A DNA stretch of 63,755 bases, filler included, from Collodictyon triciliatum (lineage: Eukaryota), in the NCBI GenBank assembly GCA_043381765.1. It is 21 parts of 21 records of this genome, joined end to end, with 100 filler letters (N's around TTAATTAATTAA, not from the genome) between each part and the next. Parts side by side here need not be neighbours in the genome. Positions count along the whole stretch, not along the records: positions 9,425 to 12,463 come from JBHJMP010007878.1; 20 more parts are not named here. The stretch is one strand, 5' to 3'. Under the pieces are notes generated by a model, which searched no databases, had not been told where the DNA came from, and saw only the letters and a program-made list of their open reading frames with translations. Made by a program: the position numbers and the translations under genes. Each line of letters starts with the position of its first letter. The stretch's first letter is position 1. Shown piece by piece: positions 11,459 through 12,103 of this stretch.

Positions 11459-11717
11459 TGAAGGCCTTCAAATATATTTGCATTTTGAAAAAAAGGTTGC
11501 GATTGAACCTGTCTGCCTGATAAAAACGATTTCAAAATCAAATCGTTTTATGGTTAAATGATGTTTTATATAACAAATAAACACATATATCCATCATATG
11601 TACCACAAATTGAAATTAATAATAATTATAATTATAATATCATTTAAAATAACCTTTTCCGTGGTGATAAAATCACTCTTTGAATTTCTTTTGAAGTATG
11701 CGGAGGTGCGTATGCAT

Positions 11718-11945
11718 TTTTTCCGATTATTCGATTCAAGAGAGGTGAGGGTTTTTAGATTATTTTTTTTACAGTCCAACGTAGTTGTATGCGCCTTGGT
11801 TGAAAGCAGTGACGCCTGTCGGATAAGGATGCAGGCCAGCTTGGTATGGAAGCTGGATTCATGGTTCATCACTATGCACCTGAGAGGGTTGACAATAATT
11901 ACAACTCTCAAGAGCTGCAACTACCGGGAGCCCTGACCTGGATTC
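11718..11945 (-). mobile_element. 228-bp SINE-like insertion with a perfect 15-bp TSD
   Basis: GAGGTGCGTATGCAT at 11703-11717 and 11946-11960 flanks an insert whose minus-strand 3' end is CTTGAATCGAATAATCGG-A5. The body is unrelated to the LINE-like copies. Confidence 0.85.
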
Positions 11946-12103
11946 GAGGTGCGTATGCATCTTAATCCAAAATCACCAAGAAAAGAGTACCCAATTGACG
12001 AATTTTGAAGCAAAAAAGGAGTTCCTACCTTGTGTGAATATCACTCTGATTTAGCATTATCTTACCTTTAAGTATTGAATTAAAAAATTGATTGGATAGG
12101 TGG

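What the first reader, a model, noticed from the sequence alone, without database searches (positions are those of the whole stretch)
11703..11960. Structured SINE-like element that shares the LINE tail, with a perfect 15-bp TSD and a possible tRNA remnant
Seen: a 228-bp insert between exact GAGGTGCGTATGCAT repeats. On the minus strand it ends CTTGAATCGAATAATCGG-A5, nearly the LINE tail, but its body is unrelated to the LINE 3' UTR. Its 5' end, (TC)GAATCCAGGTCAGGGC, looks like a tRNA T-loop, 3' T-stem and acceptor strand, as if truncated within the B box. The body has nested stems: GTAGTTG..CAACTAC, TGAGAG..CTCTCA, AGTGA..TCACT, CCAGCTT..AAGCTGG and GCCTG..CAGGC. Known: many SINEs pair a tRNA head with the 3' tail of a partner LINE. 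Inference: this is a LINE-SINE partner pair, and the intact TSD suggests a recent insertion.
Basis: partly seen in the sequence, partly recalled or inferred. Interest (0 to 1): 0.72.

Follow-up and report, generated by a model that had tools for sequence, protein, structure and literature searches.

The report
Truncated SINE sharing a LINE tail
This is a front-shortened copy of a small, many-copy parasitic repeat (a SINE) with a tRNA-type promoter-like head, whose last 16 bases match those of a LINE jumping gene that likely copied it; it is an ordinary kind of element, notable only for that very short shared tail and for some copies lying inside a Fanzor-carrying transposon.

Summary
Observation confirmed: a 228-bp insert between exact 15-bp repeats, ending in a LINE-like tail. 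It is a 5'-truncated copy (about the first 57 of 284 nt missing) of a dispersed family: 64 places of at least 100 nt among the loci fetched. Full-length copies start at one fixed base, carry A-box- and B-box-like motifs, and have decayed target duplications. The consensus tail matches the last 16 nt plus A-run of an endonuclease/RT LINE; nothing else is shared. So the SINE-LINE pairing is supported. Not supported: the predicted tRNA head (the real head differs, is not called as a tRNA and folds as two hairpins); the nested stems as a family structure (two are perfected by private changes, no covariation above expectation); and a recent insertion (5% from consensus, best sibling 89%). New side result: 10 copies sit inside a Fanzor1-bearing Helitron-like repeat whose other copies show the empty site. 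The scan had already noted tail-only stubs and that Fanzor repeat on other DNA of this genome; I found no note on this SINE itself. New member of a known kind.

The parts
11718..11945 (-). 5'-truncated SINE copy (consensus positions about 58-284)
11946..11960 (.). target-site duplication, 5'-side copy (17 of 18 if extended to 11963); its last two bases (TC on the minus strand) also match the SINE consensus, a 2-nt microhomology
11703..11717 (.). target-site duplication, 3'-side copy
11940..11947 (-). remnant of the B-box-like motif; the A box and the first part of the B box are missing in this copy
11894..11925 (-).
11836..11856 (-). CCAGCTT/AAGCTGG hairpin, the one first-reader stem also predicted in the consensus
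11723..11740 (-). LINE-shared tail; this copy differs from the family tail at a few bases of its 3' end
11718..11722 (-). A5 tail
11170..11391 (-). second, older copy of the same family (71% to consensus), cut at nearly the same point (position 57)
52482..52666 (+). 3' end of LINE family A (96% to RT-linked loci L036, L037), the putative partner
34931..35180 (+). another 3' end of LINE family A
22413..22526 (+). short 3' end of LINE family A

Best explanation
The insert is a 5'-truncated copy of a roughly 284-nt non-coding repeat family with a fixed start, A-box- and B-box-like motifs and a 16-nt tail identical to that of LINE family A, that is, a SINE likely transcribed by RNA polymerase III and likely copied into the genome by that LINE's endonuclease and reverse transcriptase. 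Inferred steps: Pol III starts at the G 13 nt before the A box; the LINE protein engages the shared tail and A-run, nicks an AT-rich target, primes cDNA there, and here stopped inside the B box, joining through a 2-nt microhomology and leaving a 15-18 bp duplication. This copy lacks its promoter and is dead. The head is probably tRNA-derived (most like tRNA-Leu) but refolded. One full-length copy likely landed in a Fanzor1-bearing Helitron-like repeat and was then multiplied as a DNA passenger.
For: 42 matches at 74-100% from 40 scored of 189 candidates; 56 hits of a 20-nt body motif, 0 for the reversed control; 128 hits of the SINE-type 3' end. 24 of 78 distinct places reach consensus position 4 or less, in 17 groups with unrelated 5' flanks. 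A box at +14, B box at +55; this arrangement in 0 of 5000 shuffles; best tRNA match Leu(TAG), 0 of 200 shuffles, among 27 tRNA genes. TSDs outscoring all controls in 11 of 37 copies scored at their own ends, 4 of 10 full-length. Tail joined to RT loci L036, L037, L041. The sister family B ORF has endonuclease plus RT, with human L1 ORF2p as best solved match. Tail-bearing inserts have TSDs of 15-19 bp in 43 of 51 called. A gradient of 5' truncations with a kept 3' end.
Against: No RNA evidence. The head is not called by ARAGORN or Rfam, the A box has T at the usually A position (recalled consensus), and only 14 of 29 copies keep a clean B box. The tRNA set searched was incomplete (27 genes), so no parent tRNA is identified. 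The shared tail is only 16 nt and holds an AATAAA, so sharing may reflect a captured LINE stub and not recognition. 26 of 37 copies gave no top-ranked TSD. The LINE clade was not placed on a tree.
Confidence: 0.85

Rival explanations
1. Same element, but the tail is not a recognition signal. A tail-only LINE stub landed behind a Pol III-transcribed tRNA relic and supplied an A-tail; the LINE protein reads only poly(A) (relaxed mode). This is a rival for the mechanism, not for the SINE call.
For: 1309 exact copies of the tail in the genome; 36 of 51 TSD-flanked tails carry 5 nt or less upstream of it, so such stubs are common. Homology ends at about 16-18 nt. Per PMC3747384 (passages), L1-clade LINEs mostly read poly(A).
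Against: In 880 kb of fetched loci (overlapping, and chosen partly for this tail), TSD-flanked A-tailed inserts ended in the family A tail (24, plus 2 fragments and 1 inverted), the family B tail (4) or a third repeated tail (2). Three were unassigned, 7 had no insert, and none was an evident tRNA or mRNA copy. Tail positions are kept in 28-36 of 36-37 copies, though this may be descent alone.
Confidence: 0.45
2. The repeat is the 3' end (UTR or terminal module) of a longer element, a LINE subfamily or the Fanzor repeat, and not an independent SINE.
For: Six full-length copies share 2.5 kb of upstream sequence at 82-86%.
Against: That upstream block is a separate family: 14 of 20 fetched copies span the site and none holds the SINE; 35 of 40 junction hits stop at the junction; L004 keeps the right-hand duplication and the continuation. 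16 other 5'-flank groups start at the same base with unrelated flanks. No match to LINE A or B bodies.
Confidence: 0.05
3. The body is a retroposed copy of a functional structured RNA gene (snoRNA-like, SRP-like or a ribozyme), and the nested stems are its fold.
For: The consensus folds somewhat better than shuffles (z -2.2 full, -2.0 body). Three of the five stems are fully complementary in the consensus.
Against: No Rfam match at threshold. The control ignores relatedness and is reached by 5-25% of null alignments by the tool's own trials. With the substitution spectrum modelled, 11 of 19 double changes keep the pair against 9.3 expected (P 0.29). Paired and unpaired sites change at 0.11 and 0.12. 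No conserved single-copy parent was seen. Dead copies cannot show selection on a master, so the test is weak.
Confidence: 0.08

Closest known systems
tRNA-derived SINEs (SINE2) with head, unrelated body and LINE-derived tail (PMC4758252 passages; PMC3747384 passages)
   Same: About 300 nt, A and B boxes in the head, unrelated body, tail shared with a LINE, variable TSDs, 5'-truncated copies.
   Different: The head is too diverged for a tRNA call; the shared tail is about 16-18 nt, against about 100 nt for tobacco TS and about 80 nt for SINEX-3_CR in PMC3747384.
SINE/L1-clade pairs: Chlamydomonas SINEX-3_CR with L1-1_CR; maize ZmSINE2/3 with LINE1-1_ZM (PMC3472496 abstract and opening text; PMC3747384 passages)
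   Same: A tRNA-type SINE sharing a 3' end and poly(A) with an L1-like LINE; only 3 such SINEs among 58 pairs in that 2012 survey.
   Different: The host is not a green plant by an earlier unchecked note; the tail is much shorter; no stable tail hairpin is predicted here (probability 0.01-0.03 in the consensus); L1-clade membership rests on architecture, not on a tree.
Fanzor1-carrying Helitrons CRe-1, 2, 3 of Chlamydomonas (PMC3627910 passages)
   Same: For the carrier only: Fanzor1 in a non-autonomous element with a fixed 3' end and variable 5' parts.
   Different: CRe copies are often flanked by 7-19 bp TSDs; none of six composites here gave a top-ranked TSD. No embedded SINE is mentioned in the passages read.

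Membership tests
SINE (non-autonomous non-LTR retroposon) | short, non-coding, dispersed in many copies | tested here: met
   284 nt; 64 places of at least 100 nt among fetched loci; 56 and 128 motif hits
SINE (non-autonomous non-LTR retroposon) | TPRT hallmarks: variable TSD, A-tail, 5' truncation with kept 3' end | tested here: met
SINE (non-autonomous non-LTR retroposon) | fixed 5' end independent of any longer element | tested here: met
   17 flank groups start at position 1-4; carrier repeat shows the empty site
tRNA-derived SINE (SINE2) | internal A and B boxes at tRNA-like spacing | tested here: met
   A at +14, B at +55; 0 of 5000 shuffles; box consensus recalled
tRNA-derived SINE (SINE2) | head homologous to an identifiable tRNA | tested here: inconclusive
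   best of 27 genes is Leu(TAG), z 4.6, mostly through the boxes; no ARAGORN or Rfam call
tRNA-derived SINE (SINE2) | transcription by RNA polymerase III | not testable with these tools
   no RNA holder listed
SINE/LINE partner pair | 3' end shared with an RT-encoding LINE of the same genome | tested here: met
SINE/LINE partner pair | tail required for mobilisation (stringent recognition) | not testable with these tools
   indirect only
L1 clade (partner LINE) | APE endonuclease before RT, C-terminal CCHC knuckle, poly(A), variable TSD | tested here: met
   endonuclease and RT in family B ORF; weak zf-RVT in family A, below cut-off; TSDs. The endonuclease of family A itself was not scanned.
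L1 clade (partner LINE) | RT groups with L1 on a tree of LINE clades | not tested
   no named references: PDB hits were L1 (E 4e-42) and R2 only; homologues unnamed
Conserved structured RNA (Rfam-type) | covariation and conservation of pairs | tested here: not met
   borderline value
Helitron (carrier repeat) | A|TC start, hairpin then CTAG|T end, no TSD | tested here: inconclusive
   hairpin and CTAG end shared by copies; A|TC read by eye in 2 of the 3 copies that reach it; Helitron-type genes exist elsewhere in the genome but no link to them was tested

The most novel reading that the evidence does not exclude
The SINE's tail turned a Fanzor1 gene into retrotransposable cargo: composites of about 2.8 kb (antisense Fanzor plus SINE) that end exactly at the A-tail in unrelated flanks (L240, L241, L242, L244, L313) were inserted by the LINE's reverse transcriptase, making a Fanzor-carrying retroposon. 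[quoted passage not shown] Against: no top-ranked TSD in 0 of 6 scored, every composite followed that far keeps the Helitron-type terminus where 5' truncation would be expected, and four others continue into the carrier.
Probability: 0.07. Interest if true: 0.75.

Novelty: new member of a known kind. Interest (0 to 1): 0.36.

Why it matters
SINEs with a LINE tail are textbook. What this adds is modest but usable. SINEs sharing a tail with an L1-type LINE were rare in the 2012 survey (3 of 58; PMC3472496), and all were in green plants. If this LINE is L1-clade and the tail is needed (my odds about 0.35), a 16-18 nt signal in a non-plant microbial eukaryote would support the proposal that sequence-specific 3' recognition is ancestral in L1, and would give a very small test substrate. 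The family also shows a SINE spreading by a second route, as a passenger in a Fanzor-bearing DNA element: 5 of 7 embedded copies carry a B-box change seen in 3 of 22 others.

Tried and rejected
Rfam on the window copy, six loci and one full copy: nothing at gathering score; best E 0.049 at 20 bits against a cut-off of 35. ARAGORN: no tRNA in the window or in any SINE locus given, so no sign of tRNA-gene targeting within about 1.5 kb. HDV and hammerhead ribozyme cores: looked for by eye from recalled motifs, not found, not computed. LINE family B as partner: different tail. A copy of this SINE with a second LINE tail: none seen among the listed copies. Empty-site allele: not testable; only contigs at depth about 2. 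Expression: no RNA holder listed, and no RNA contigs laid; this is no evidence either way. Sister families: 0 matches in metagenome contigs with one 23-nt pattern. Trees of carrier copies and of SINE copies are star-like and do not resolve origin; one origin of the composites is neither shown nor excluded by them. Pfam did not name the Fanzor fragments; PDB did. Literature searches listed no paper on SINEs of this lineage or on a SINE inside a Fanzor Helitron; the library lacks most subscription journals and Repbase, and I read no supplements. The host lineage was not tested.

Full report
Setting. The window is a string of about 3-kb contigs from a 75-Mb eukaryotic assembly. An earlier, unchecked note calls the host a freshwater flagellate related to Diphylleia; I did not test this.

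Observation. The 15-bp repeat, the 228-bp insert and the tail are as described. The duplication extends to 17 of 18 bases and outscores all 49 mismatched flank pairings. Two short records of run X1 span the two junctions without differences.

The family. A genome search gave 42 matches from 40 scored of 189 candidates, the best non-self at 89%. A 20-nt body motif gave 56 hits and the SINE-type 3' end 128, with 0 for reversed controls. Among all fetched loci there are 78 distinct places, 64 spanning at least 100 nt; 24 reach consensus position 4 or less and fall into 17 groups by 5' flank. The consensus is 284 nt. Decayed duplications in full-length copies end just before the same G, which fixes the 5' end (4 of 10 top-ranked; 11 of 37 over all copies scored at their own ends). 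Of 27 places with the SINE-type tail end, most are short 3' stubs; 7 matched the SINE body upstream at E 0.001 or better, and none shared a longer non-SINE upstream sequence. The window copy begins at position 58-60, inside the B box. A second, older copy lies at 11170-11391.

The head. An A-box-like motif starts at +14 and a B-box-like motif at +55; the pair arose in 0 of 5000 shuffles (box consensus recalled). The best match among 27 tRNA genes was Leu(TAG) (0 of 200 shuffles), driven largely by the boxes. ARAGORN and Rfam do not call the head. The consensus head folds as two hairpins (z -2.5). The head is therefore tRNA-promoter-like and probably tRNA-derived, with no parent identified.

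The tail and the LINE. The window's three LINE 3' ends match loci where the same tail follows an RT frame (L036, L037, L041). The SINE consensus matches that end over 22 of 22 nt including the A-run and nowhere else; family B has another tail. The family B ORF has endonuclease and RT domains and matches human L1 ORF2p best among solved structures, where only L1 and R2 appeared. Family A shows RT and a weak zf-RVT. The tail occurs 1309 times exactly, only 292 of them with 12 further LINE bases. Of 81 sampled places 51 had a TSD, 43 of these 15-19 bp, and 36 of the 51 carried 5 nt or less upstream of the tail. Earlier agents reported these stubs many times. They offer a simple origin for the SINE tail (inference): a stub landing behind a Pol III unit.

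Structure. In the family it is not: two stems owe a pair to changes shared by 1 of 34 and 0 of 37 other copies; four of five have probability 0.0 in the consensus, and each reaches 0.5 in at most 4 of 30-32 copies. The dominant feature is a different 14-pair hairpin (15 of 26 copies). RNAalifold on 18 copies gave -3.0 kcal/mol with no covariation bonus. That control ignores relatedness; with the substitution spectrum modelled the excess vanished (11 of 19 against 9.3, P 0.29; 197 of 2000 random column sets did as well). Ten sister copies with shared flanks and copies under 72% were left out of the 38-copy set. Dead copies cannot show selection on a master gene, so structure is unproven, not disproven.

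Age. The window copy differs from the consensus at 9 of 177 body positions (5.1%; median 11.7% over 38 copies, second lowest). At that level a perfect 15-bp pair has probability about 0.2. With no sibling above 89%, this is a late copy of an old family.

The Fanzor link. Six full-length copies share 2.5 kb upstream, which holds, on the opposite strand, broken frames matching Fanzor1 structures (E 5e-12). That block is a large family (360 candidates, 40 scored) with a hairpin and CTAG at its fixed end. Of 20 copies fetched, 14 span the site and none has the SINE. Nine of 54 SINE copies had carrier flanks and one more was found among 18 further regions. L004 keeps the right-hand duplication and the continuation; L243, L245 and L304 resume the carrier further on; L240, L241, L242, L244 and L313 pass from the A-tail into unrelated DNA, and L314 into a microsatellite. 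Embedded copies share two variants (5 of 7 against 3 of 22, P 0.008, one hitting the B box; 6 of 8 against 4 of 24, P 0.005; picked from a scan of columns, uncorrected). This fits one insertion followed by DNA-level amplification; L314 has a different order and may be independent. Why so many composites break at the A-tail is unexplained. Earlier notes describe this Fanzor repeat and disagree on whether it is a Helitron.

Comparison. The anatomy is that of a tRNA-type SINE with head, body and LINE tail (PMC4758252, passages). PMC3472496 (abstract and opening text) and PMC3747384 (passages) list 58 SINE/LINE pairs, 3 with L1 tails, all in green plants, with shared ends of about 80-100 nt in the examples read. 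PMC3627910 (passages) describes Fanzor1 in Helitrons. PMC13565253 (passages) says no retrotransposon is known to encode a Fanzor. A sequence look-up in earlier scan notes found nothing like this SINE; one note describes a SINE body with two LINE tails, which may or may not be this family.

Verdict. Real; a new member of a known kind. SINE and partner LINE supported (0.85); tRNA parent, Pol III transcription, tail recognition and functional structure inferred or unproven; recency not supported. Interest 0.36.

Noticed in passing
L240 7053-9824, L241, L242, L243, L244, L245, L004/L315, L313, L314, L304: SINE copies embedded head-to-head with a broken Fanzor1 gene in a Helitron-like repeat; most composites break at the SINE A-tail.
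   Followed up: yes
window 2025-2050 (+), 10505-10525 (-), 11445-11464 (-), 12105-12129 (-); 1309 exact places genome-wide: Tail-only or near tail-only pieces of the LINE family A end; genome sample shows 15-19 bp TSDs after T-rich bases. Already noted by earlier agents. The window instances were not each checked for TSDs.
   Followed up: partly
SINE consensus positions 19-27 and 55-64: 5' truncation points cluster near the loops of the two predicted head hairpins (8 and 5 of 30; best-window P 0.017; BLAST ends and ascertainment may inflate this). Both window copies are cut at 57-58. The B-box region shares a 7-nt word with the tail.
   Followed up: partly
L094 and L300 (TSD-flanked inserts of 41-44 nt): A third A-tailed retro-insertion family with its own 3' end; all three tails end in GAAT plus A's.
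   Followed up: no
L097, L105, L106, L107, L110, L111, L127, L310-L312; and L028, L029, L120, L121, L124, L125; and L246, L247, L302: Three further sets of SINE copies multiplied with shared flanks, that is, inside other repeats or duplicated segments, not identified.
   Followed up: no
L093, L098 (two), L309: Head-only pieces of the SINE ending at positions 42-101 without body or tail.
   Followed up: no
window 28216-30948 (-): 910-codon open frame with 27-nt repeats and an SQ-repeat end; not scanned (one search failed on another reference).
   Followed up: no
window 35376-37631 (-): 751-codon frame with WD40-like repeats, Cys-rich repeats and a multi-pass membrane region, read by eye.
   Followed up: no
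G000 C834 (L052, L062, L064, L076) and L067: C834 holds many tRNAs and looks organellar; L067 has tRNA-Ile(GAT) next to tRNA-Ala(TGC), as in bacterial or plastid rRNA spacers (recalled), a possible contaminant.
   Followed up: no
L031 (G000 C929): Long open frame of an LTR-type retroelement (protease, RT, RNase H, integrase motifs by eye).
   Followed up: no
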